From an uncultured Gammaproteobacteria bacterium (GTDB lineage: Bacteria > Patescibacteriota > Patescibacteriia > 2-01-FULL-39-33), in contig CAZHYS010000003.1 in the NCBI GenBank assembly GCA_964536975.1, positions 15,419 through 79,418 of the forward strand: a stretch of DNA of 64,000 bases. The letters run 5' to 3'. This document shows, piece after piece, positions 1,353 to 63,600 of the stretch. A program made the translations under genes and the position numbers. The notes beneath the pieces are model-generated. The model was not told the DNA's origin and did no database searches. It was given only the letters and a program-made list of their open reading frames with translations. The number at the start of each line of letters is the position of its first letter. The stretch's first letter is position 1.

Positions 1353-1425
1353 TGCGCCCACCAGGGCTCGAACCTGGGACCGTTTGCTTAAGAGGCAACT
1401 GCTCTACCAACTGAGCTATGGGCGC
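1353..1425 (-). tRNA. tRNA-Lys (anticodon CTT)
   Basis: The reverse complement folds as a cloverleaf: GCGCCCA acceptor, AGTTGGTAGAGC D-arm, anticodon loop cTCTTaa, TTCGAGC T-loop. A CCA tail is not encoded. Confidence 0.8.
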
Positions 1426-1452
1426 GCGTTTTATGAAATTATCGGTGTGTGT

Positions 1453-1484
1453 CTATTAGGACTCGAACCTATAGCCTTCTGGTT
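1453..1484 (-). repeat. orphan duplicate of the T-arm/anticodon-stem portion of tRNA-Arg(TCG)
   Basis: The 27-nt stretch ggactcgaacctatagccttctggt is identical to 1508-1534 inside the intact tRNA. The copy lacks acceptor ends. Confidence 0.6.
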
Positions 1485-1495
1485 TTCCGTAAAAA

Positions 1496-1569
1496 TGCGC
1501 CCGACAGGACTCGAACCTATAGCCTTCTGGTCCGAAGCCAGACGCTCTATCCAATTGAGCTACGGGCGC
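1496..1569 (-). tRNA. tRNA-Arg (anticodon TCG)
   Basis: The reverse complement reads GCGCCCG-TA-GCTCAATTGGATAGAGC-G-TCTGG-cTTCGga-CCAGA...TTCGAGT...CGGGCGC-A. Confidence 0.8.
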
Positions 1570-1624
1570 ATATTATTTTATTTAAAACAGCCATGGCTAA
1601 ATTTATCGCAACATTTTCCAACTC

Positions 1625-1690
1625 GTCTGCTCGTCTCGCGTCGGCGCGAGCCGAGGCGGAAGCTATGGGCACGCTTGATTATCTAACTCG
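1625..1690. repeat. hairpin (ctcgcgtcggcgcgag) + 'ccgaggcggaagcta' + copy of tRNA-Lys 5' end (agctatgggc)
   Basis: The same architecture recurs at 9183-9452 and 23752-23800, each time with the local tRNA's 5' end. Confidence 0.55.
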
Positions 1691-1726
1691 TTCATTTTAG
1701 CATATTAGGAGAAAAAAATCAATCCG

Positions 1727-7727: not shown

Positions 7728-7833
7728 GCCCCCCCTCCTTGTTTGAAGGAGGGGGAAGGGGGGAGGTTTTAAAGTATTAAAATTAGGTTTATTCTAACCC
7801 TCTCCTATCCTCCCCCTTCAGACAAGGGGGAGG
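7728..7833. repeat. two copies of the CCCCTCC...GGAGGGG hairpin repeat
   Basis: Copy 1 is ccccctccttgtttgaaggagggggaaggggggagg. Copy 2 is cctcccccttcagacaagggggagg. Confidence 0.7.
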
Positions 7834-7919
7834 AAAATAAGGTGAAAAGAATCAATGATTATTATAAGTATTATTGTATCATAAGTTTATTATTTTAGCT
7901 TAAATTAAGCGTAAAGTCA

Positions 7920-8712: not shown

Positions 8713-9057
8713 ATCAATAAGGGTGGTCGCTAGTGGAGTCGCTTGCCTCGCCGAAGCTTTGCGAAGGCGGGAACCACTATTCCTGGACAGCGCTGGATGC
8801 TTACTATGGTCGCATCCATCGACGCTCTCCCGAGAATTCGGGATCGCTTCTGTCCGTCTCGTCAGCTATGGCTGACTTCGACCCTTCCCGATTCATCGGG
8901 ACGCTCTTTCTTTCCGTGACGCTAAGCGCGGCATTAATGGAATTGTTATGAAAGTGTGGTCGCTAGTGGAGTCGAACCACTGACCTTCCCGATTCATCGG
9001 GACGCTCTTTCTTTCCGTGACGCTAAGCGCGGCATTAATGGAATTGTTATGAAAGTG
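8713..9057. repeat. tandem and dispersed duplications of the tRNA-Val 3' end (100-bp unit x2 plus a diverged third copy)
   Basis: The 28-nt tRNA 3' end tggtcgctagtggagtcgaaccactgac occurs at 8958-8985 and in the real gene at 9058-9085. The unit 8885-8985 is repeated at 8986-9085. A partial copy lies at 8723-8741, next to a tcgccgaagctttgcgaaggcgg hairpin. Confidence 0.7.
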
Positions 9058-9131
9058 TGGTCGCTAGTGGAGTCGAACCACTGACCTCATCCACGTCAAG
9101 GATGCGCTCTAACCAACTGAGCTAAGCGACC
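9058..9131 (-). tRNA. tRNA-Val (anticodon GAC)
   Basis: The reverse complement reads GGTCGCT-TA-GCTCAGTTGGTTAGAGC-G-CATCC-tTGACgt-GGATG...GGTTCGACTCC...AGCGACC-A. Confidence 0.8.
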
Positions 9132-9182: not shown

Positions 9183-9452
9183 TCTTTAAATATGCTTGTC
9201 TCGCCGTAGCCTTGGCGAAGGCGGAAGCTAAGCGACCAAATATCTAATTCCGGTAAGTTTTTAAAATTATTTAAAGACGTTGTCTACTCTTTAAATATGC
9301 TTGTCTCGCCGTAGCCTTGGCGAAGGCGGAAACTAAGCGACCAAATATCTAATTCCGGTAAGTTTTTAAAATTATTTAAAGACGTTGTCTACTCTTTAAA
9401 TATGCTTGTCTCGCCGTAGCCTTGGCGAAGGCGGAAACTAAGCGACCGTAAT
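9183..9452. repeat. about 2.6 copies of a 105-bp tandem repeat; each unit = hairpin tctcgccgtagccttggcgaaggcgga + agctaagcgacc (tRNA-Val 5' end)
   Basis: The units start at 9183, 9288 and 9393 and are near-identical. A single a/g difference separates copy 1 from copy 2. Confidence 0.75.
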
Positions 9453-9499
9453 CAAGAGTATCTTAGTAAAAAAATTGCCAATTGTCAAAGATTTTGCAG

Positions 9500-9572
9500 T
9501 AGGCCAGGGTGGATTTGAACCACCGACATCTACGTTATAAGCGTAGCGCTCTAACCCCTGAGCTACTGGCCC
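9500..9572 (-). tRNA. tRNA-Ile-like (anticodon TAT)
   Basis: The reverse complement reads GGGCCAG-TA-GCTCAGGGGTTAGAGC-G-CTACG-cTTATaa-CGTAG...GGTTCAAATCC. The 5-bp anticodon stem CTACG/CGTAG is perfect, so the anticodon reads UAU. Confidence 0.65.
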
Positions 9573-9624
9573 ATATTAATTATATTCTAAACATTTGTAA
9601 CTAATTTTATCACAACACCTTCTA

Positions 9625-9732
9625 GCCCCGCCTGCCCGCCTCGCGTCGGCGCGAGCCGAGGCGGAAAATACTATTCATTATTTTTTTGTCTTTAAACCCC
9701 TCCCTACCCTCCCCTTCGGATAATGGGAGGGA
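9625..9732. repeat. hairpin ctcgcgtcggcgcgag + ccgaggcggaa motif, followed by a CCTCC hairpin repeat (ccctccccttcggataatgggaggg)
   Basis: Both parts are members of the two repeat families seen throughout the window. Confidence 0.6.
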
Positions 9733-9800
9733 AAAAAGAAATATCACCTCTCTAAATATACTTCATTGTCGTTATTTTTTCAAGCTCTTTCAGTGAGTTT

Positions 9801-22817: not shown

Positions 22818-23075
22818 TGTGGGTGGCTACTGGGATAATCTTCGCGAATCGCCAACAGAAACTTGGCGATTTGCTCCGCCCTGGGTGGCGGCCAATCCTG
22901 CTCGCTTCGCCGAATCTAGGCGAGCGCCAGCCCTGCCTGCCGGCAGGCAGCTCGGATCGGCCTGAAGTTTCGCTTTGGCGCTCGCCTTCCGTCTCGCTTC
23001 TCGCTCAACTTGCCACCCGTTCAACTCCCGACCCAAATTAAAAAGATGGACAAAATAATGTCCATCTTTTTAATT
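22818..23075. repeat. GC-rich about 240-bp segment bounded by a direct repeat of the tRNA-His 3' end, with an inverted partial copy and central palindrome
   Basis: The string gggtggctactggga at 22822-22836 matches 23078-23092 in the tRNA. The stretch 23010-23040 is an imperfect inverted copy (...caactcccgacccaaatt). The palindrome aaaagatggacaaaataatgtccatctttt lies at 23041-23071. Confidence 0.6.
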
Positions 23076-23149
23076 TGGGTGGCTACTGGGAGTTGAACCC
23101 AGACTAACGGGACCACAACCCGCTGTTCTACCGCTAAACTATAGCCACC
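23076..23149 (-). tRNA. tRNA-His (anticodon GTG, encoded G-1)
   Basis: The reverse complement reads G-GTGGCTA...GCGGG-tTGTGgt-CCCGT...GGTTCAACTCC...TAGCCAC-C. Confidence 0.75.
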
Positions 23150-23273
23150 ATATAATAACACTTAACAATTAACATTTAACTGATGCGCTATTCTTGGCAA
23201 TTAATCATTAGCAATTTACAGTATAACTTCAGACCGGTTAAAGGTTAACTGTCAATTGTTAACTATTAACTTA

Positions 23274-23345
23274 TGCCCCCAGTAGGAATCGAACCTACAT
23301 CACAGGTTCCGGAAACCTGCGTTCTATCCATTGAACTATGAGGAC
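23274..23345 (-). tRNA. tRNA-Arg (anticodon CCG)
   Basis: The reverse complement reads GTCCTCA-TA-GTTCAATGGATAGAAC-G-CAGGT-tTCCGga-ACCTG...GGTTCGATTCC. The acceptor stem has two G-U pairs. Confidence 0.7.
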
Positions 23346-23368
23346 GATTGCCTGACGGGATCGGGCGG

Positions 23369-23442
23369 CGTCCGCGGCAGGATTCGAACCTGCGACCTAC
23401 AGCTTAGAAGGCTGTTGCTCTATCCAGCTGAGCTACGCGGAC
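23369..23442 (-). tRNA. tRNA-Arg (anticodon TCT)
   Basis: The reverse complement reads GTCCGCG-TA-GCTCAGCTGGATAGAGC-A-ACAGC-cTTCTaa-GCTGT...GGTTCGAATCC...CGCGGAC-G. Confidence 0.8.
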
Positions 23443-23509: not shown

Positions 23510-23800
23510 CATTTTCCTCCCCCTTTACAAGGGGGAGGTAGGAGGGGGTAAATTAATTATGATATTTACCTCAATTACCCCTCCCTAACCCGTTCCTGGG
23601 CAGAGCTAATCGCTCCCAATGGTCGCGATTATCTACGCTCGCTTCGCATCGCTTCTGCCCGTCCTTCGGACCCCTTATAAATGGGAGGGAAAGAATAATC
23701 GTAAACAATGCTAACAATTTTTATAATTAAATTTTTAAAATTTTATTTCTTTACTCGTCTCGCCGTAGCCTTGGCGAAGGCGGAAGCTACGCGGACATAA
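23510..23800. repeat. CCTCC hairpin repeats (23516-23549, 23671-23690) and hairpin + cgaaggcggaagcta + tRNA-Arg(TCT) 5'-end copy (23752-23795)
   Basis: The string ctcgtctcgccgtagccttggcgaaggcggaagctacgcggac matches the tRNA 5' end (g)agctacgcggac at 23432-23442. Confidence 0.65.
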
Positions 23801-30378: not shown

Positions 30379-30759
30379 ATGGACGAGAAAATTCTCCAAG
30401 AGCTGAAAAATCAGCTTGAAGAAAAAAAAGAAAGAATAATCGCCAACTTAGAAAGCATCGGCAATCGAGTGAAGGGCGATGACAACGATGAGATAAATTA
30501 CAACGCCGAGTTTCCCGATTACGGCGATTCCAGCGAGGACAGCGCGGTGGAAGTGGCTGATTATACCAAAAATTTGTCTTTTGAACGGGGGCTAGAAGGC
30601 GAATTGCGCGACGTGGAAGCGGCGCTCAAAAAAATAGCAGAAGGGGGATATGGTATTTGCAAGCACTGCGGCAAGCAGATAGAGCTGGAGCGATTGAAGA
30701 TCCGCCCCGAATCATCTTCTTGCGTCGCCTGCAAACAAGCGCTCAAGAATGGGGAATGA
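30379..30759 (+). CDS. DksA/TraR-family C4-type zinc-finger protein
   Basis: It has CKHCGKQIELERLKIRPESSSCVACK (CxxC-17-CxxC) and an N-terminal coiled coil. The ORF track starts earlier at 30283. Confidence 0.65.
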   Translation: MDEKILQELKNQLEEKKERIIANLESIGNRVKGDDNDEINYNAEFPDYGDSSEDSAVEVADYTKNLSFERGLEGELRDVEAALKKIAEGGYGICKHCGKQIELERLKIRPESSSCVACKQALKNGE

Positions 30760-30763
30760 AATT

Positions 30764-30797
30764 CCCTCCCCTTTACAAGGGGAGGGAAGGGAGGGGT
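30764..30797. repeat. CCTCC hairpin repeat copy
   Basis: The sequence is ccctcccctttacaaggggagggaagggagggg. Confidence 0.7.
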
Positions 30798-30845
30798 AAA
30801 ATAATGGAATAATATTTTCTTTTTTCAAGTGACAAAAAAGGATTT

Positions 30846-36643: not shown

Positions 36644-37549
36644 ATGGATCAAGAAAAAATCAGCCAAAATATTATTCAGATAGTCTGCTATTTTGACCTG
36701 TTTGACTATCCTTTGACAGCAATAGAGATTCATAAGTGGCTGCCGGTCAAGGCGGGTTTGGCCGAGGTGGTCGCGGCTTTGAATTCATCCTGGTTTAATG
36801 GCAAAATTGATTGCCGCGACGGCCTGTATTTTCTTTTCGGTCGCCATGATTTGCCGGCCTTGCGCGGTCGCCGCTATCTCTTGGCTGAACGGAAATTCCG
36901 TCGGGCGATTTTTTTGGCAAAAATTTTTTCCCATTTTCCTTATATACGCGCGATCGCGATTTCCGGATCGCTTGCCTATTCCAATGCCCGGCCGGAGAGC
37001 GATATTGATTTATTCATCGTCGCCGCCAAGGGTCGGGCTTGGACGACGCGGTTTTTTGTCAATTCTTTTTTGTCTGTCTTCAATCTGCGGCCGCGTGGCG
37101 ACAATCGCCGCGACAAGATCTGCGCCAGTTTTTTTGTCGCCGCCGACGGGTTGGATTTGAGTTTTATCCGGCATTACCGCGAGGATATTCATTTTGCCTA
37201 TTGGCTGTCGCAGTTTGTTTTTTTGTTTGGCGATGAGGCCGGATTTTTTGCCGCCAATAGCTGGCTGGCCGATTGTTTGCCGAATTTTTATCCTTTCTCT
37301 CTTTCCGCCCGCCGCCGGCTTTCCGGTCGCGCTCTTAGTTGGGACTGGCTAGCCGCCTGGCTGCCAGAAAATTTTTTTCGCAAAATCCAATTGATTATTT
37401 TGCCTCGCCGATATTTGGCGCTCGCCGCCGCCGGCCAAGATGTGGTTTTGTCGGACCAAATGATCAAGATTCACACCGGCGCCAAGGGCCGGCAGGTGGC
37501 AGAAAGGTTAGCGCAAAAAATTGAATCAATTATAAAATCAAATGGATAA
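36644..37549 (+). CDS. nucleotidyltransferase-domain protein
   Basis: It has the minimal NTase motif GSLAYSNARPESDIDLFIV. Confidence 0.55.
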   Translation: MDQEKISQNIIQIVCYFDLFDYPLTAIEIHKWLPVKAGLAEVVAALNSSWFNGKIDCRDGLYFLFGRHDLPALRGRRYLLAERKFRRAIFLAKIFSHFPYIRAIAISGSLAYSNARPESDIDLFIVAAKGRAWTTRFFVNSFLSVFNLRPRGDNRRDKICASFFVAADGLDLSFIRHYREDIHFAYWLSQFVFLFGDEAGFFAANSWLADCLPNFYPFSLSARRRLSGRALSWDWLAAWLPENFFRKIQLIILPRRYLALAAAGQDVVLSDQMIKIHTGAKGRQVAERLAQKIESIIKSNG

Positions 37550-38924
37550 TCTTCGCAAAATAATTGACGGTCTGGTTTATCTTTTCGTCTTTTTACTGCC
37601 TTGGCAAACCGTTTGGATTGTGGAGGAAAGATTTTTGGGCGGCGCCAAGTGGCAGGCCGGCACAGTCGCTATTTACGGCACGGAGATCTTGTTGTGGCTG
37701 ATCATTATTTTGTCGTTGGTCGTTTGGGCTAAAGAAAAAAACAACAAAATGTCTTTTGATTCTTTCCGATCATCTATTACCAATCACTATTTGCCCGTCA
37801 CTGGTTACTCGTTGCTAATTTCTATTTTCCTTCTCTGCTCCCTCCTCTCAATTTTTTGGTCCGGCGATAAGCAGTTGGCGCTCTATTGGTGGATCAAGCT
37901 GGCTGAAGGCATCGTGCTATTTTTTGTTGTTTCATTCGGACGTCTCCGCGTCAGAAAAATCTGTTGGCCGCTCGCTCTATCTGGCGCTGTCCAAGGCGTT
38001 TTGGCGATTTGGCAATTTTTGGTCCAGGAAGTAGCGCCTAATAAGTGGCTCGGCTTGGCCGCGCATTTGCCCGCTGAATTGGGAACGGCCGTTGTGGCCA
38101 CATCGGACGGCCGCTGGCTTCGGGCTTATGGCGCTTTTTCTCATCCGAATATTTTGGGTGGATTTTTGGCAATTAGTTTTTTTGCCACCCTTTTTTTGTA
38201 TCTGAACTATCGTCCCGGCGGCCGGAAAATTATATTAGCGTCGTCTTTATTGGCTATCTCCGGCGGATTATTTTTCAGTTTTTCCCGCAGCGCGTGGCTA
38301 GCGGCAGTGACGGCTTATGGCGTATGGCCTATGGCGTATGGCCTATGGCGTATGGCCTATGGCGTATGGCCTATAGCAAATAGCAAATGGCAAATGGCCG
38401 GCAACAAAAAATTTTTGGAAATTATCAAACCGACATTGTATCTGCTTTTTGTTTTTTTGGTTTTATTCTCTATTTATCGCCCGCTGGTAGCGGCGCGCGT
38501 CGTTTCCAGTGACCGATTGGAGATAAAATCCGTTCAAGAGCGGCTAGACTCTGTTGCTAACGCCGAGCAAATGGTTAAAAGTCATTGGCTTGCCGGAGTT
38601 GGCATCGGTAATTATACTTTTTCGCTTCATCAAAAGAATCCCGGCTTGCCCGCCTTTGCCTATCTGCCGGCGCACAATCTGTATCTTTTGATCGCGGTCG
38701 AGCTGGGCCTGGTCGGCAGCTTGATTTTTCTGGCGATAATCGCATCTTTTTTTCTGTCCGCTTGGCGCCGATCACCCCGGGAGTTTTGGCCGGCAATCTT
38801 TCTGGCGATAATTTTGATCTTGGGCTGTTTTGACCATTACTTTTGGACCAGCTATTCCGGGCTCATGCTATGGTGGCTGACAGCGGCGCTAATTGTAAAA
38901 AAAGAGCCAGATAGCGGCTCTTGA
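37542..38924 (+). CDS. O-antigen ligase/polymerase (Wzy_C)-family membrane protein with an in-frame tandem-repeat insert
   Basis: It is polytopic and has a Wzy_C-like loop. A 14-bp tandem repeat sits at 38306-38396. Confidence 0.55.
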   Translation: MDNLRKIIDGLVYLFVFLLPWQTVWIVEERFLGGAKWQAGTVAIYGTEILLWLIIILSLVVWAKEKNNKMSFDSFRSSITNHYLPVTGYSLLISIFLLCSLLSIFWSGDKQLALYWWIKLAEGIVLFFVVSFGRLRVRKICWPLALSGAVQGVLAIWQFLVQEVAPNKWLGLAAHLPAELGTAVVATSDGRWLRAYGAFSHPNILGGFLAISFFATLFLYLNYRPGGRKIILASSLLAISGGLFFSFSRSAWLAAVTAYGVWPMAYGLWRMAYGVWPIANSKWQMAGNKKFLEIIKPTLYLLFVFLVLFSIYRPLVAARVVSSDRLEIKSVQERLDSVANAEQMVKSHWLAGVGIGNYTFSLHQKNPGLPAFAYLPAHNLYLLIAVELGLVGSLIFLAIIASFFLSAWRRSPREFWPAIFLAIILILGCFDHYFWTSYSGLMLWWLTAALIVKKEPDSGS

Positions 38925-39304: not shown

Positions 39305-39441
39305 ATAATTAAATCGCAAATTAAATATCTTCTCTTTGTCTGAAGGAGACACCTCCATTCCCCCCCCCTCCTTGTCTGAAGGATGGGGGCGGGGGGAGGT
39401 AAAATCAATAATTACAATTAAAATTAAAAATTATAAATTAA

Positions 39442-41139: not shown

Positions 41140-41480
41140 TGTAGGGGCGGGCAGCAGTTCCCCCTCCTTGTTTGAAGGAGGGGGTAGGGGGAGGTAGGGA
41201 AGGGATATTTTCCGACAACTCCTCCGCCCGAATCCGTAGAAGACGGGGCATGCCCCGTCTTTTTTGGTGTTATTATTGTTTTACCGCGGCGGACTTGGCA
41301 ATCCTATTTCCATACTGTCATCCCGACTAAGTCCGCCACGGCGGACGCATAGAGGGATCCCTCGGCTGCGCATTTCAATCGGGATCGCCATGGTTGTCCG
41401 TCCCAAAGACTCACAATAGCAGTATTTGCCGATTCCACGGATTATAATGTTTATCTGCCGTCGCGGATTCGTAGATTTGT
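41140..41480. repeat. composite repeat: about 110-bp CCTCC-hairpin element (also at 62570-62745), gacggggcatgccccgtc palindrome (also at 56955), and gtcatcccga...gggatccctcg / tccgccacggcggac elements (also at 63240-63600)
   Basis: The stretch 41146-41262 aligns with 62586-62700. The shared core is gttccccctcct..aggagggggtagggggaggt.gggaagggatattt.ccgacaa...cgtaga.gacg. Confidence 0.7.
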
Positions 41481-44404: not shown

Positions 44405-44790
44405 CCATTTTCCCTCCCCTTTATAAGGGGAGGGCAGGGAGGGGTATTATCACCCTGTCCGCCTTTATATTACGAACGAGGGAGCCTTTATAATTCTTCC
44501 CCCTCCTTACGAAGGAGGGGGTAGGGGGAGGTCAGATTAATTTATCCCCCCAATTTTTCCTCCCCTTACCAAGGGGAGGAGCCTGCCCTGAGCGAAGCCG
44601 AATGGGTATCTCCCCCCCCCTTGTTCTAAAGAAGGCATCTCTGTTCTTCCCCCTCCTTACGAAGGAGGGGGTAGGGGGAGGTCAGATTAATTTATTTCCA
44701 CCGCCCCCGCCAAAACCGATTACAATTTTGGCGACCCCTCCTTCGGACAAGGAGGGGTAATAAAAATACGAGGGGAGGGTTTTTTATGTG
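44405..44790. repeat. cluster of at least 5 CCTCC hairpin repeats incl. an exact 54-bp duplication (44504-44545 = 44644-44697)
   Basis: Member sequences are ccctcccctttataaggggaggg, ccccctccttacgaaggagggggtagggggagg (twice), cctccccttaccaaggggagg and cccctccttcggacaaggagggg. The shared motif cctgccctgagcgaagccgaatgg is also at 52150 and 57590. Confidence 0.8.
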
Positions 44791-51962: not shown

Positions 51963-52322
51963 GACCTCCCCTACCTCCTTCTCGTATTTTTATTACCCCT
52001 CATTGTTTGAAGGAGGGGTCGTCAAAATTGTAATCAGTTTGATTTTTCCTCCCCCTTGTTTGAAGGGGGAGGACAGGAGGGGGTGAAAAAATATTAATTA
52101 GACCTCCCCTTACCCCCTCCTTCAGACAAGGAGGGGGAAAAGATGCCAGCTCGGCTTCGCTCAGGGCAGGCTCCCTCCTCCATCCGCCAAAGGCGGACAA
52201 ATGGACAAGGAGGGGGAATAAATCCTGTATCTTTCCCTACCCCCCCCTCACCCCTAATTTTTAGCCCCTAACCCCTAATCGTTAAACGCTAACAGCTAAT
52301 CGCTAATTGCTAATCCCTGTCC
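51963..52322. repeat. cluster of CCTCC hairpin repeats + ctaatcgctaattgcta word repeats (left flank of helicase gene)
   Basis: There are at least 4 hairpin copies, and ccctaacccctaatcgttaaacgctaacagctaatcgctaattgctaatcc runs up to the ATG. Confidence 0.75.
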
Positions 52323-57582: not shown

Positions 57583-57690
57583 CACTCCCTATCCCGTTCG
57601 GCTTCGCTCAGGGCAGTCTCCTCCCCTTAGTAAAGGGAGGGGAGAACGGCCCCCAAATAAGGGATGGCAGGAGGGGTAAGGGAGGTTTTT
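57583..57690. repeat. CCTCC hairpin repeat copy with shared cggcttcgctcagggcag motif
   Basis: The sequence is ccctatcccgttcggcttcgctcagggcagtctcctccccttagtaaagggagggg. Confidence 0.7.
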
Positions 57691-57748
57691 TAAAAAAAAT
57701 AGTAGAAGTATTTTTCAAAAAATAATAATTCAAAAATAATTCAAATCT

Positions 57749-59661: not shown

Positions 59662-60018
59662 ATGATAAACAGTTACAAAGATTTGATAGTTTGGCAAAAA
59701 GCCATGGATTTGGTTGTTGCTATTTATAGTTTAACTGAAAAATTTCCTTCTTCGGAGGCTTATAATCTAACTTCTCAAATTAGACGTTCGGCCGTATCAA
59801 TTCCTTCAAATATAGCAGAGGGCAGAAGAAGGTCTGGAGTTAATGAATTTCGCCATTTTTTATTTATTGCTTACGCTTCCGGAGCGGAATTGGAAACACA
59901 GATTGAGATAGCCAGGCGGCTGTCTTTTGGAAAAAACCTTGATTTTAATAAAGTCGATGAATTATTAAATGAAGTAATGAAAATGCTCAATAAAATAATT
60001 GGCACTCTTCAATCCTAA
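59662..60018 (+). CDS. four-helix-bundle protein (TIGR02436; '23S rRNA intervening-sequence protein' family)
   Basis: The sequence DLIVWQKAMDLVVAIYSLTEKFP...QIRRSAVSIPSNIAEG is characteristic. The gene is flanked by agctaatcagct direct repeats. Confidence 0.75.
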   Translation: MINSYKDLIVWQKAMDLVVAIYSLTEKFPSSEAYNLTSQIRRSAVSIPSNIAEGRRRSGVNEFRHFLFIAYASGAELETQIEIARRLSFGKNLDFNKVDELLNEVMKMLNKIIGTLQS

Positions 60019-62424: not shown

Positions 62425-62830
62425 TAGTTTATAAAGTCTATAAAGTTCATAAAGTTTGTAAAGTCAGGAACTAGGAGTTAGGAATTAGCGTTTAGCGATT
62501 AGGGGAAAATGCAATAATTATAAAGTCAAAAGCCTATAAAGTTCGTAAAGCTTGTGGTGAGCGAAGTCGAACCATCGGATGTAGTGGCGGGTAGCGGTTC
62601 CCCCTCCTGGTCAGGAGGAGGGGGATAGGGGGAGGTTGGGAAGGGATATTTCCGACAATGCCCCCGCTCGATTCGTAGAGACGCGATTCATCGCGTCTAT
62701 AGTAGAGATGTTCCGATCCCGAGGACTCGGAAGGGGCGCCTCTTTTTGTTTATGGTTGGGGATTTCTTAGGGATGGGGCTCTTGTCTCGCCGTAGCTTAT
62801 GCGAAGGCGGATGCCCCCGTCTGGTTTGAC
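62425..62830. repeat. word repeats (ataaagt), second copy of the about 110-bp CCTCC-hairpin element, gacgcgattcatcgcgtc palindrome, and tctcgccgtagcttatgcgaaggcgga hairpin variant
   Basis: The stretch 62586-62700 aligns with 41146-41262. Confidence 0.7.
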
Positions 62831-62984
62831 TTTTGATTGTTTTCGCGTTATGATTATATTTACGAAAAAAAGAGGAGGATGAGAATTGGAGGATAATAAG
62901 TCTCCGCCCAATCCAATAAAAGAGTCGAGTAGATTTATTTAGTTTTGGGGTATAAGGCAATGAGAAGTGAGAAAGGATGACACG

Positions 62985-63197
62985 ATGGGATTTACGGTCA
63001 CAGTTCTCGGAGAAGAAACGGAGGAACGATTTGAAGGATTTGCCAACCGGAAGGAGGCCGGAGAATTCGCGGGTCCGCATATTGAAATGGGACATCGTTT
63101 CAAAGTCAGGAGAGCTTCGAGAACAAAGAGTCCTTTCGGAAAACACGGGCGACGAACCAGAGTTTGTCATCGTCGTCCCGTGACGAATTGTAAGTAG
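62985..63197 (+). CDS. small basic hypothetical protein (70 aa)
   Basis: An aaagga RBS lies 8 nt upstream of the ATG and a strong terminator follows at 63203-63238. Confidence 0.4.
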   Translation: MGFTVTVLGEETEERFEGFANRKEAGEFAGPHIEMGHRFKVRRASRTKSPFGKHGRRTRVCHRRPVTNCK

Positions 63198-63239: not shown

Positions 63240-63600
63240 CTTTGTCATCCCGAGCAGGGCCGAGGGATCCCTCCACTCCGCCTCCGGCTCCGGTCGGGAT
63301 GACATAATTTTTGATTGCCTCGCCACGGTTCCACCAGAGGCGGACAAGCGGTCGCCCGAGGCTTTCGCCGTGGCGGACATGGCAATTCCATTTTCATCTT
63401 GTCATTGCGAGCGACCGTGAGGGAGTGTGGCAATCCCACATTGATTAATGGTGACTTTTTTAAAACATGGGATCGTCACGTCCGCCACAGCGGACTCGCG
63501 ATGACACAGTATTCCGAGTATCTCAACACAGACGCGATAAATCGCGTCTCTACGGATTTCTATTCCGAGTTACGAGTCGCGAGTTACGAGCCCCAAATAG
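63240..63600. repeat. composite repeat: gtcatcccgag...cgagggatccctc, tccgccacgg...ccgtggcgga, gtcattgcgagcgaccgtgagggag, gacgcgataaatcgcgtc, gagttacgagtcgcgagttacgag
   Basis: It shares modules with 41270-41480 and 56925-57130. Confidence 0.65.

What the first reader, a model, noticed from the sequence alone, without database searches (positions are those of the whole stretch)
1440..1700. tRNA-Lys/Arg cluster with an internal tRNA fragment duplication and a hairpin-plus-tRNA-5'-end element
A 27-nt internal piece of tRNA-Arg(TCG), covering the T-arm and part of the anticodon stem, is duplicated 50 bp upstream of the intact gene. About 60 bp beyond the cluster, a 6-bp-stem hairpin (ctcgcgtcggcgcgag) is followed by ccgaggcggaagcta and a copy of the tRNA-Lys 5' end (agctatgggc). 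The same hairpin + 'cgaaggcggaagcta' + local tRNA 5' end architecture recurs at the tRNA-Val locus (9183-9452) and the tRNA-Arg(TCT) locus (23752-23800). This looks like a dedicated tRNA-associated element rather than chance.
Basis: seen in the sequence. Interest (0 to 1): 0.55.

Follow-up and report, generated by a model that had tools for sequence, protein, structure and literature searches.

The report
Mobile hairpin repeat splitting tRNA-gene copies
A 32-base GC-rich hairpin repeat found in many bacterial phyla sits, in this small Patescibacteria genome, directly against the first 12 bases of duplicated tRNA gene starts, so the "tRNA-associated element" is a selfish-looking palindromic repeat that has remodelled the regions upstream of tRNA genes rather than a dedicated tRNA device.

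Summary
All four tRNA transcription units in the window have a copy of one hairpin family upstream of their first tRNA. In five of those six copies, the hairpin abuts nt 1-12 of the tRNA that lies downstream.

The hairpin is not specific to tRNAs. It has a CTCGCC-GWAGC-N2-5-GCGAAGGCGG core, and its closing base pair covaries. It occurs in more than 120 genomes from Acidobacteriota, Patescibacteria, Verrucomicrobiota, Planctomycetota, Proteobacteria and others. Most copies are far from any tRNA, and some form head-to-head dimers like REPINs.

Two syntenic relatives have clean tRNA loci, and one relative lineage has an uninterrupted 31-nt tRNA-Arg 5' fragment with no hairpin. A Saccharibacteria contig shows the hairpin inside a partial tRNA-Met copy with both tRNA flanks preserved. 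A more distant relative has the same "tRNA nt 1-12 + hairpin" junction at tRNA-Lys.

Best reading: this is a REP-like mobile palindrome. It inserts at the D-arm (nt 12/13) and the T-loop of redundant tRNA gene copies, and local tandem amplification follows.

The enzyme and the order of events remain inferred. An alternative not excluded is that hairpin-bounded mini-cassettes carrying an intact tRNA replace the resident gene.

The parts
1353..1425 (-). tRNA-Lys(CTT), intact
   Evidence: ARAGORN; Rfam 68.9 bits
1458..1483 (-). 26-nt partial copy of tRNA-Arg(TCG) nt 40-65 in the Arg-Lys spacer, with no hairpin next to it
   Evidence: Exact repeat of 1506-1531. The spacer is 17 nt in relative L146 and 69 nt here.
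1495..1570 (-). tRNA-Arg(TCG), intact
1571..1621 (-). Leader segment between the hairpin and tRNA-Arg. Its first part (TTGGAAAATG..GATAAATTTAGCC) aligns with the rest of the 5' tRNA-Arg fragment plus spacer of relatives. It is about 73% identical to the segment upstream of tRNA-Ile.
   Evidence: alignments; weak promoter-like site at 1599-1572
1622..1660 (+). Hairpin type B. The core is T-CTCGCG..GGCGG-A at 1634-1660, with a 5' tail/extension at 1622-1633.
   Evidence: same sequence in strain L123
1661..1672 (-). 5' fragment (nt 1-12) of tRNA-Arg(TCG), here mutated to GTGCCCATAGCT
   Evidence: L123 has GCGCCCGTAGCT; L122 and L146 have an uninterrupted 31-nt fragment at this place
1694..1722 (-). 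Promoter-like site upstream of the fragment (TTGATT-17-TAAAAT, with TG)
   Evidence: consensus scan only
8724..8779 (-). 3' pseudo-copy of tRNA-Val interrupted in the T-loop. tRNA nt ~57-74 lie at 8724-8741, hairpin type C at 8742-8771 (+ sense), and tRNA nt 49-55 at 8772-8779.
   Evidence: ggagtcg|CTTGCCTCGCCGAAGCTTTGCGAAGGCGGG|aaccact, versus the native GGAGTCGAACCACT
8883..9084 (-). Perfect 101-nt tandem duplication (x2) carrying the 3' part of tRNA-Val plus a degenerate pseudo-tRNA
   Evidence: the repeat finder family D11, 100% identity; sub-threshold tRNA hit at 8957-9030, 18 bits
9057..9131 (-). tRNA-Val(GAC), intact
   Evidence: identical to the tRNA-Val of relative L146
9150..9464 (-). 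Three tandem 105-nt units. Each holds a promoter-like AT-rich segment, tRNA-Val nt 1-12 and a type A hairpin. Hairpins lie at 9194-9225, 9299-9330 and 9404-9435 (+ sense). Fragments lie at 9226-9237, 9331-9342 and 9436-9447. The outermost fragment also has the tRNA's own 5-nt upstream flank at 9448-9452.
   Evidence: family D3; promoter-like sites at 9170-9141, 9295-9266 and 9400-9371
9460..9488 (-). Best promoter-like site of the locus (TTGACA-17-TAAGAT). It sits upstream of the outermost fragment, not of the intact tRNA-Val.
9499..9572 (-). tRNA-Ile(TAT), intact
9573..9665 (+). Module upstream of tRNA-Ile. It comprises a leader segment at 9573-9628 that is homologous to the one upstream of tRNA-Arg(TCG), plus hairpin type B' at 9629-9665. 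No tRNA fragment is attached.
   Evidence: also present in the 99% strain L148; absent in L146, L163 and L164
22820..22834 (-). 3' fragment of tRNA-His (acceptor 3' strand plus T-stem 3' strand) next to a second terminator. About 200 nt of GC-rich repeats separate it from the intact gene.
23077..23442 (-). tRNA-Arg(TCT) at 23367-23442, tRNA-Arg(CCG) at 23274-23345 and tRNA-His at 23077-23148, read here as one transcription unit because of their close spacing and shared strand
23754..23784 (+). Hairpin type A, 317 nt upstream of tRNA-Arg(TCT). Other hairpin repeats lie in between.
   Evidence: short-read contigs of identical strains break inside it
23785..23798 (-). 5' fragment of tRNA-Arg(TCT), nt -2 to 12
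   Evidence: promoter-like site at 23828-23800 directly upstream
62781..62811 (+). Hairpin type D, not next to a tRNA
63314..63344 (+). Diverged hairpin type E, not next to a tRNA

Best explanation
The hairpin is a copy of a short (about 32 nt), GC-rich, imperfect-palindrome repeat of the REP/miniature-transposon kind. It has a conserved unpaired 5' tail (GCYTG) and a 6-bp stem with a bulged T. It also has a GWA/GAA internal loop and a short GC-closed apical loop. The family is spread over many bacterial phyla.

In this Patescibacteria lineage it has inserted into tRNA-gene sequence at two recurrent places: the D-stem/D-loop border (after nt 12 or 13) and the T-loop (nt 55-57). An insertion into the only functional copy would destroy the tRNA. 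So insertions are seen only in redundant partial or duplicated copies that lie in the leader or trailer of the intact gene.

The 'tRNA 5' end' beside the hairpin is therefore the promoter-proximal stump (nt 1-12, with its own upstream flank and the best promoter-like site) of such a copy. The sequence on the other side of the hairpin is the decayed remainder.

The unit of promoter-like segment, nt 1-12 and hairpin was later amplified in tandem at tRNA-Val (three 105-nt units). The hairpin-plus-leader segment was homogenised between the tRNA-Arg and tRNA-Ile leaders, probably by ectopic recombination anchored in the hairpin and the similar tRNA 5' ends.

Shown: the family and its structure; its presence or absence among relatives; one insertion with both tRNA flanks preserved; and the same junction at five different tRNAs.

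Inferred: that the hairpin moves as single-stranded DNA through a trans-acting HUH/Y1-type or similar enzyme; the order duplication, then insertion, then decay; and recombination between leaders.
For: Family and spread:
- The core is found in more than 120 loci of diverse phyla with unrelated flanks.
- 9 copies occur in this 64-kb window against 0.6 expected.
- Assemblies of identical strains break inside the hairpin.
- Head-to-head dimers occur in Acidobacteriota.

Structure:
- The closing pair -1:+1 covaries (CG 45, UA 29, GC 19, AU 4, GU/UG 7, 16 of 120 unpaired). 0 of 500 shuffles reach the observed covariation score.
- Sliding the 3' partners by 1-3 columns leaves 26-50% of cells paired, against 94.5% for the structure itself. 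An alternative pairing register shows no covariation.

Insertion:
- In L006 (Saccharibacteria), a 31-nt 5' copy of tRNA-Met lies 22 nt upstream of the gene and is split after nt 13 by the hairpin, with both flanks preserved.
- At window 8742-8771 the hairpin splits the T-loop of a tRNA-Val 3' copy.
- Hairpins are also nested in the loop of other hairpins.

Presence and absence in relatives:
- L146 and L164 have clean Ile-Val loci.
- L122 and L146 have an uninterrupted 31-nt tRNA-Arg fragment, and L121 has a decayed one. The window's leader aligns to these on both sides of the hairpin.

Recurrent junction after nt 12:
- It occurs at Val, Arg(TCT) and Arg(TCG) in the window and at Lys in L163. 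It occurs after nt 13 at Met in L006.

Promoter-like sites:
- The best ones lie upstream of the outermost fragments.

Decay:
- GTGCCCATAGCT in the window versus GCGCCCGTAGCT in a 99% strain, and AGTT versus AGCT among the Val units.

Association with tRNAs across genomes:
- 15 of 172 hairpins lie within 150 nt of a tRNA signature, against 30 of 1240 control positions.
Against: - No transposase or other mobilising enzyme was identified. The window's ORFs were not scanned exhaustively for one.
- No target consensus or target-site duplication emerges from about 140 copies.
- The hairpin's orientation does not follow GC skew in other genomes (26 versus 16, p = 0.16).
- At tRNA-Val the hairpin-free relative has no partial copy at all. 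So 'duplication first, insertion second' is documented only for tRNA-Arg and, by its preserved flanks, for tRNA-Met.
- After the hairpin, similarity to tRNA nt 13 onward is weak at Val and absent at Arg(TCT).
- The near-identity of a 30-nt sequence across phyla is unusual for REPs, which are normally specific to a lineage.
- The intact tRNAs carry their own promoter-like or terminator-like sequences. These differ from those beside the outer fragments. Simple tandem duplication does not predict this.
Confidence: 0.5

Rival explanations
1. Miniature tRNA-replacement cassettes. A hairpin-bounded segment carries an intact copy of the tRNA with its own promoter-like and terminator-like sequences. 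It integrates into the resident tRNA gene at the D-arm and/or T-loop by a site-specific or structure-specific recombinase acting in trans. The resident gene's 5' stump (with the old promoter) and 3' stump (with the old terminator) are pushed outward, while tRNA function is kept. This is the logic of tRNA-targeting integrative elements, shrunk to a few hundred bases.
For: - At tRNA-Val, the outermost 5' stump has the best promoter-like site, and the outermost 3' stump lies directly next to the terminator shared with the neighbouring gene. The intact gene sits between two hairpins of the same orientation.
- The tRNA-His 3' stump sits by a second terminator that differs from the one after the intact gene.
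- In L163, tRNA-Arg is flanked by about 25-nt inverted repeats carrying hairpin-arm motifs. Outside these repeats lie nt 1-26 and nt 50-73 of the same tRNA.
- In L163, tRNA-Ile is followed by a ~165-nt hairpin-rich insert and then a ~24-nt direct repeat of its own 3' end starting in the T-loop.
- Direct repeats of 12-17 nt (tRNA -5 to +12) flank the inserted material at Val and Arg(TCT).
Against: - No recombinase was found.
- The incoming cassette would need the matching tRNA for each target.
- L122 and L146 have a 5' fragment without any hairpin.
- In L006 the hairpin lies inside the fragment, not at its edge.
- The tRNA-Ile copy has no tRNA stump.
- Most family members elsewhere have nothing to do with tRNAs.
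Confidence: 0.2
2. The unit is functional in tRNA expression. A leader element made of the tRNA's first 12 nt plus a structured hairpin could act as a terminator or insulator between two promoters. It could be a processing signal or decoy for RNase P. If transcribed from the + strand, it could be an antisense RNA against the tRNA 5' end.
For: - All four tRNA transcription units of the window have a hairpin upstream of the first tRNA in the same orientation. Three of the four lie about 55-65 nt upstream.
- Each unit has a promoter-like site.
- The junction is conserved between genera.
- The hairpin is under structural selection.
- In the Arg(TCT) copy, the antisense fragment can pair with the hairpin's 5' half.
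Against: - The unit is absent from orthologous loci of syntenic relatives that have identical tRNAs.
- The fragments accumulate mutations.
- The copy at tRNA-Ile lacks the fragment.
- The same hairpin is mostly found away from tRNAs in other phyla.
- No T-run follows the hairpin on the tRNA strand, and the terminator scan calls none of the hairpins.
- Folding energies of the window copies are not better than those of shuffles.
Confidence: 0.12
3. The tRNA fragments are attL/attR scars of ordinary, larger integrative elements (prophages or islands) that used tRNA genes as attachment sites and later decayed. The hairpins would be unrelated passengers or arm-type binding sites.
For: Direct repeats of tRNA ends flanking foreign DNA while the tRNA stays intact are the hallmark of integrase att sites. 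3' fragments starting in the T-loop or anticodon stem occur at Arg(TCG), Val, His and L163 Ile. tRNA gene fragments produced by integrated elements are documented in prokaryotes (PMC9897764, abstract).
Against: - The inserted DNA is only 90-700 nt and carries no integrase remnant.
- Nearly every tRNA locus of a 64-kb stretch of a small genome would have to be scarred.
- To my knowledge, duplications of the 5' end with a break after nt 12 are not a described integrase sublocation.
- The hairpin sits exactly at the break in five independent cases.
Confidence: 0.08

Closest known systems
REP elements / REPINs mobilised by RAYT (Y1 HUH) transposases
   Same: Both are 20-40-nt GC-rich imperfect palindromes with a bulge and a conserved unpaired 5' tag. 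Both are dispersed, mostly in intergenic DNA. Both occur as singletons, head-to-head dimers and clusters. REPs are occasionally found inside genes or inside other palindromes (PMC3733652). This family likewise has no visible target duplication.
   Different: The tag is GCYTG, not GTAG or CGTC; the GTAG/GAAG here lies inside the hairpin. No RAYT gene was seen. The same sequence is shared by distant phyla, whereas REP families are usually lineage-specific. The recurrent insertion into tRNA D-arm and T-loop sequence is not a described REP property, as far as I know.
IS200/IS605-type single-strand transposition and its miniature derivatives
   Same: Both have a hairpin-defined end, lack target duplication, and have a strictly oriented junction next to a short target motif. 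Here, on the tRNA strand, the element follows AGCT in five tRNA cases and in nested copies.
   Different: There is one hairpin, not two different subterminal ones. AGCT is not a general flank of the family. No orientation bias with replication was found outside the window.
tRNA-gene-targeting integrative elements (integrase att sites in anticodon loop, T-loop or 3' end)
   Same: Both leave direct repeats of a tRNA segment flanking inserted DNA, with an intact tRNA preserved and displaced stumps left beside the old regulatory signals.
   Different: The inserts are tiny and non-coding. The 5' end is duplicated as often as the 3' end. The break lies after nt 12 in the D-arm.
Rickettsia palindromic elements and yeast mitochondrial GC clusters
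   Same: These are GC-rich palindromes that invade AT-rich compact genomes, including positions inside genes for proteins or RNAs, and can nest within each other (from general knowledge; RPEs are also mentioned in PMC3733652).
   Different: The sequences are unrelated, and RPEs are longer (about 100-150 nt). Neither is known for a junction at a fixed tRNA position.
Archaeal non-canonical tRNA introns / intron transposition
   Same: Both are short structured insertions at D-arm and T-loop positions of tRNA genes that share sequence between different tRNAs (from general knowledge).
   Different: Here the interrupted copies are truncated and non-functional. The splicing endonuclease that removes those archaeal introns is, as far as I know, not found in bacteria. 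The intact tRNAs carry no insertion.

Membership tests
REP / REPIN | Short (20-40 nt) imperfect palindrome able to fold as a hairpin | tested here: met
   32-nt unit. The closing pair covaries with four Watson-Crick types, and 0 of 500 shuffles reach the observed score.
REP / REPIN | Many dispersed copies per genome, mostly extragenic | tested here: inconclusive
   9 copies in 64 kb against 0.6 expected, and contigs of identical strains break in it. The rest of the genome could not be read.
REP / REPIN | Conserved GTAG (or CGTC) tag at one end outside the stem | tested here: not met
   The conserved unpaired 5' tail is GCYTG. G(T/A)AG lies in the internal loop.
REP / REPIN | Head-to-head inverted dimers | tested here: met
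   Adjacent inverted pairs occur in L046, L054, L058, L092, L098 and L103. None occurs in the window.
REP / REPIN | Cognate RAYT gene flanked by the repeats | not tested
   Only 9 ORFs of the window were scanned with Pfam and none is a transposase. A look at ORFs between inverted copies in L119 and L031 gave nothing usable.
[quoted passage not shown] | 70-300 bp, with terminal inverted repeats and a fixed-length target-site duplication | tested here: not met
   The unit is 32 nt. The flanks show no duplication or complementarity beyond the -1:+1 pair.
IS200/IS605-derived palindrome-associated elements | Insertion 3' of a fixed tetra- or pentanucleotide, and strand bias with replication | tested here: inconclusive
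   AGCT precedes the element on the tRNA strand in the tRNA and nested cases but not generally. All 9 window copies are on the G-rich strand. In other genomes the split is 26 to 16, not significant.
Integrase att site in a tRNA gene | Direct repeat of a tRNA segment bounding an element that encodes an integrase | tested here: not met
   The repeats are present. The bounded DNA is 90-700 nt of hairpins and AT-rich spacer without an ORF.
Known RNA family (Rfam 15) | Match to a curated covariance model | tested here: not met
   Only tRNAs pass at gathering score. No relevant match up to E = 10 or E = 5 over the loci.
CRISPR array | Regularly spaced identical repeats separated by unique spacers of similar length | tested here: not met
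   The three Val copies are spaced by 105 nt, but the 'spacers' are copies of each other (87% and 74% identical units).

The most novel reading that the evidence does not exclude
A cross-phylum hairpin marks the ends of miniature, non-coding cassettes. Each cassette carries an intact tRNA gene with its own promoter or terminator and homes into the resident copy of the same tRNA gene at the D-arm and T-loop. The result is tRNA gene replacement without loss of function, driven by an as yet unknown structure-specific enzyme that recognises tRNA-gene DNA, or the hairpin's GWA/GAA-loop fold, in many phyla.
Probability: 0.15. Interest if true: 0.8.

Novelty: new variant of a known kind. Interest (0 to 1): 0.5.

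Why it matters
If this is right, a single 32-nt palindrome family with a defined fold is shared by very distant bacteria. In Patescibacteria it repeatedly breaks and rebuilds the starts and ends of tRNA genes.

That has three consequences.
- It would explain why assemblies of these genomes fragment at tRNA loci.
- It would explain why tRNA pseudo-fragments confuse annotation.
- It would offer a tractable case for asking how REP-like repeats choose their targets.

The fixed break after tRNA nt 12 and in the T-loop points to recognition of folded tRNA-gene DNA. The sequence identity across phyla points to a conserved, still unidentified binding or mobilising protein.

Tried and rejected
- **Rfam.** Searches at gathering score and at permissive E-values gave only tRNAs.
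- **Literature.** Searches by sequence strings and by topic found no description of this hairpin. A Patescibacteria tRNA group I intron preprint concerns position 35/36 and is unrelated.
- **Viral contigs.** Only 5 hits, so phages are not an evident vehicle.
- **Orientation versus GC skew in other genomes.** Not significant.
- **First structure model.** A long 12-bp stem using the 5' tail, with a bulged A, was rejected. It shows no covariation, whereas the shorter register does.
- **Extended flank complementarity or target duplication.** None found.
- **9-mer matching of hairpin flanks to tRNAs.** Too noisy, since controls hit 65% of the time. It was replaced by D-arm and T-arm signatures.
- **Transposase gene between inverted copies.** A look at L119 and L031 was uninformative in GC-rich DNA.
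- **More of the source genome.** Only short contigs ending at the repeats were available.
- **CRISPR-like array, terminator on the tRNA strand, tRNA-like minihelix, split or intron-containing functional tRNA.** Considered and dropped on reading the sequence: the spacers are identical, the hairpin lacks an adjacent T-run, there is no acceptor pairing, and the interrupted copies are truncated.
- **Fragment at 1661-1672 as a tRNA-Lys copy.** Rejected in favour of tRNA-Arg because of strain L123.
Full report
**What is in the window**

The window comes from a Patescibacteria (CPR) genome. PilT, a DHH phosphoesterase and a nitroreductase encoded next to the tRNA loci have their best matches (57-100% identity) in Patescibacteria MAGs.

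Seven tRNA genes are called, all on the minus strand. By spacing and shared strand they form four apparent units:
- Arg(TCG)-Lys(CTT)
- Val(GAC)
- Ile(TAT)
- Arg(TCT)-Arg(CCG)-His

**Checking the observation**

- Type A (CTCGCCGTAGCCTTGGCGAAGGCGGAAG) occurs at 9200, 9305, 9410 and 23759.
- Type B (CTCGCGTCGGCGCGAGCCGAGGCGGAA) occurs at 1635 and 9640.
- A relaxed core finds nine copies against 0.6 expected, all on the + strand. These include one at 8747 and two near 62.8 and 63.3 kb.

Directly 3' of five of these copies lies the reverse complement of nt 1-12 of the tRNA immediately downstream on the other strand:
- GGTCGCTTAGCT or GGTCGCTTAGTT (Val, three times)
- GTCCGCGTAGCT with two further upstream bases (Arg TCT)
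- GTGCCCATAGCT (upstream of Arg TCG)

The last one looks like tRNA-Lys. But a 99%-identical strain has GCGCCCGTAGCT there, which is exactly tRNA-Arg(TCG) (L123). The rule is therefore 'the first 12 nt of the next tRNA'.

The 'internal 27-nt piece' is an exact 26-nt copy of tRNA-Arg nt 40-65. It lies 12 nt downstream of that gene on its own strand and has no hairpin beside it.

**The hairpin is a widespread repeat with a defined fold**

I scanned one genome per species for CTCGCCGWAGC-N2-5-GCGAAGGCGG.
- The loci come from Acidobacteriota (many Vicinamibacterales), several Patescibacteria lineages, Verrucomicrobiota, Planctomycetota, Cyanobacteriota, Proteobacteria and others. Their flanks are unrelated.
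- A few hits are plain coding sequence, but most share a conserved 5' tail, GCYTG.
- In Acidobacteriota many copies sit as head-to-head inverted pairs.

On an alignment of the 120 distinct copies, the bases immediately outside CTCGCC...GGCGG covary as a base pair. The counts are CG 45, UA 29, GC 19, AU 4, GU/UG 7, with 16 unpaired.
- None of 500 shuffles reaches the observed covariation.
- Sliding the partner by 1-3 columns leaves 26-50% of cells paired, against 94.5% for the structure itself.
- The first and last bases of the variable apical segment also covary.
- The longer stem I first drew, which used the 5' tail, shows no covariation.

The fold is therefore:
- N-C-(bulged T)-CGCC paired with GGCG-G-N'
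- an internal loop GWA/GAA
- GC/GC
- a 2-5-nt loop
- an unpaired conserved tail

This fixes the 3' edge of the element. It shows that in the window the tRNA piece is exactly nt 1-12.

No Rfam family matches, and I found no paper describing the sequence.

**The hairpin is not tied to tRNAs in general, but is enriched near them**

Only 9 of 124 copies in the genome scan lie within 500 nt of a tRNA. A D-arm or T-arm signature lies within 150 nt of 15 of 172 hairpins, against 30 of 1240 control positions in the same loci.

In L001, L093 and L109 the hairpin abuts the 3' end of a tRNA. A metagenome scan for hairpin + AAGCT gave 21 loci. Most are hairpins inserted into the loop (G-W^AGC) of another hairpin.

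**What relatives show**

Three syntenic relatives cover the same gene neighbourhood.

- **L146** (DHH 67% identical) has tRNA-Ile, 59 nt, then tRNA-Val, then a terminator. Its tRNA-Val is identical to the window's. There are no hairpins and no fragments.
- **L164** (59%) is equally clean.
- At the **Arg-Lys locus**, L146 and L122 have no hairpin. They do have an uninterrupted 31-nt copy of the tRNA-Arg 5' end 26 nt upstream of the gene, and L121 has a decayed version. The window's leader aligns with these on both sides of its hairpin. There, the partial copy is older, and the hairpin went into it after nt 12.
- **L163** (57%) has, upstream of tRNA-Lys, GGATGTTAGCT|TCCGCC...hairpin, then 59 nt, then the intact gene. 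This is the same junction in another genus and another tRNA.

Independently, a Saccharibacteria contig (L006) has a 31-nt 5' copy of tRNA-Met 22 nt upstream of the gene. It is split after nt 13 by the hairpin, with 13 and 18 nt of tRNA sequence preserved on the two sides. This is the clearest filled site.

In the window itself, the copy at 8742-8771 splits the T-loop of a tRNA-Val 3' pseudo-copy: GGAGTCG|hairpin|AACCACT, against the native GGAGTCGAACCACT.

**Anatomy of the loci**

- The best promoter-like sites lie upstream of the outermost fragments: TTGACA-17-TAAGAT at 9488-9460; 1722-1694; 23828-23800. Weaker ones lie in every unit just before the fragment or the intact tRNA.
- At tRNA-Val, the unit of promoter-like segment, nt 1-12 and hairpin is repeated three times with a 105-nt period. 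The outermost fragment keeps 5 nt of the tRNA's own upstream flank.
- Downstream of tRNA-Val there is a perfect 101-nt tandem duplication carrying its 3' part, followed by the hairpin-split 3' copy next to the terminator.
- tRNA-His has a 3' stump 242 nt downstream, beside a second and different terminator. GC-rich repeats fill the gap.
- The type B hairpin and the about 52 nt that follow it are shared by the tRNA-Arg(TCG) and tRNA-Ile leaders at about 73% identity. At tRNA-Ile, this block sits where relatives have the tRNA directly after their leader.
- Short-read contigs of identical strains end inside the hairpins.

**Interpretation**

I read the hairpin as a REP-like mobile palindrome. In this clade it lands in tRNA-gene sequence at the D-stem/loop border and in the T-loop. 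It survives only in redundant partial copies, because an insertion in the working copy would be lethal.

Later tandem amplification and ectopic exchange between leaders explain the 105-nt array and the shared Arg/Ile block. The exchange would be anchored by the identical hairpins and the similar tRNA starts.

The mobility mechanism is inferred by analogy to REP/RAYT and IS200/IS605 systems: a single-stranded hairpin recognised by an HUH-type enzyme. No enzyme was found. There is no family-wide target motif and no replication-strand bias outside the window.

**Rivals**

*Cassette model.* Several features fit an insertion that brings a fresh tRNA copy and pushes the old ends outward better than they fit simple duplication and decay:
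- different regulatory signals at the stumps and at the intact genes
- hairpins at both ends of the tRNA-Val block
- the L163 tRNA-Arg, flanked by inverted repeats inside a split copy of itself
- the 24-nt direct repeat after L163 tRNA-Ile

I keep this as the main rival and as the most novel reading.

*Regulatory role.* A regulatory role for the unit is made unlikely by three things: its absence from orthologous loci with identical tRNAs, mutational decay of the fragments, and the non-tRNA contexts elsewhere.

*Scars of large integrative elements.* These do not explain the tiny inserts or the D-arm break.

**Comparison with known systems**

The element works like a REP. It matches on size, fold with a bulge, an unpaired conserved tag, dimers, and nesting (PMC3733652).

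It fails the GTAG/CGTC tag test, and no RAYT is known for it. So I do not file it as a member of the described REP super-families.

The fixed junction in tRNA-gene sequence and the sequence identity across phyla are the unusual parts.

**Verdict**

This is a real, non-random feature. The tRNA-dedicated reading is only partly right. It is a new variant of a known kind (REP-like palindromic repeats) with an unexplained preference for two conserved sites of tRNA genes in Patescibacteria.

Noticed in passing
window 7729-7837, 9697-9735, 23511-23562, 30759-30810, 39362-39413, 41140-41234, 44407-44760, 51993-52141, 57620-57702, 62580-62674: A second, more abundant intergenic repeat family: hairpins of the type CCCCCTCC-loop-GGAGGGGG followed by (T)AGGGGGAGG. 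There are at least 12 copies, some tandem (a 150-nt spacing with 100% identity at 44494 and 44644). One copy lies between hairpin B' and the DHH gene, and one lies inside the Arg(TCT) leader.
   Followed up: no
window 62675-62702 and 63526-63556: Two copies of a GTAG-tagged palindrome (GTAG-AGACGCGAT-TCA/AAA-ATCGCGTCT) in opposite orientation with respect to the tag. This looks like a classical REP and lies in the same 1.2-kb repeat-rich intergenic region as hairpins D and E. It hints that a RAYT-type transposase may exist elsewhere in the genome.
   Followed up: partly
window 8843-8858 and 23648-23663: A shared 16-mer, ATCGCTTCTGYCCGTC, inside ~100-nt GC-rich multi-hairpin segments. These flank the tRNA-Val 3' pseudo-copies and lie in the tRNA-Arg(TCT) leader. 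Possibly a third repeat family linked to tRNA loci.
   Followed up: partly
window 22835-23040: A ~200-nt GC-rich block between tRNA-His and its displaced 3' stump. It contains a perfect palindrome CTGCCTGCCGGCAGGCAG, a CTCGC..GCGAG hairpin related to the family studied, and a T-arm-like piece (GTTCAACTCCC) in inverted orientation at about 23019-23035.
   Followed up: no
L163 18860-19060 (relative): tRNA-Arg(TCG) is flanked by ~25-nt imperfect inverted repeats (ACAGACTCCTGCCCGCCACTGCC / GGCGATGGCAGGCGGGTCGGATCTGT). Outside these lie nt 1-26 and nt 50-73 of the same tRNA, so an intact tRNA gene sits inside a split copy of itself.
   Followed up: partly
L163 11280-11468 (relative): tRNA-Ile is followed by a ~165-nt insert rich in GC hairpins and then a ~24-nt direct repeat of its own 3' end, starting in the T-loop (AAATCCACCCTGGCCTACAA). 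The insert includes a CCCGCC..GGCGAGAC variant of the family.
   Followed up: no
window 9499-9572: tRNA-Ile with anticodon TAT (UAU), which is uncommon in bacteria. It is conserved with the same anticodon in relatives L146, L163 and L164.
   Followed up: no
window 38298-38395: Seven head-to-tail 14-nt units (GGCCTATGGCGTAT) inside the ORF at 37542-38924. The period is not a multiple of three.
   Followed up: no
window 59662-60018: A gene for a 23S rRNA intervening-sequence protein family member (PF05635, from the gene table of the identical contig L154) next to a PEP-utilising enzyme gene, with no rRNA nearby.
   Followed up: no
window 62977-63197: Small + strand ORFs of 68 and 76 aa with a Shine-Dalgarno-like AAGGA lie between hairpins D and E. 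The 157-aa minus-strand ORF overlapping them (62697-63170) looks spurious. None of these was searched.
   Followed up: no
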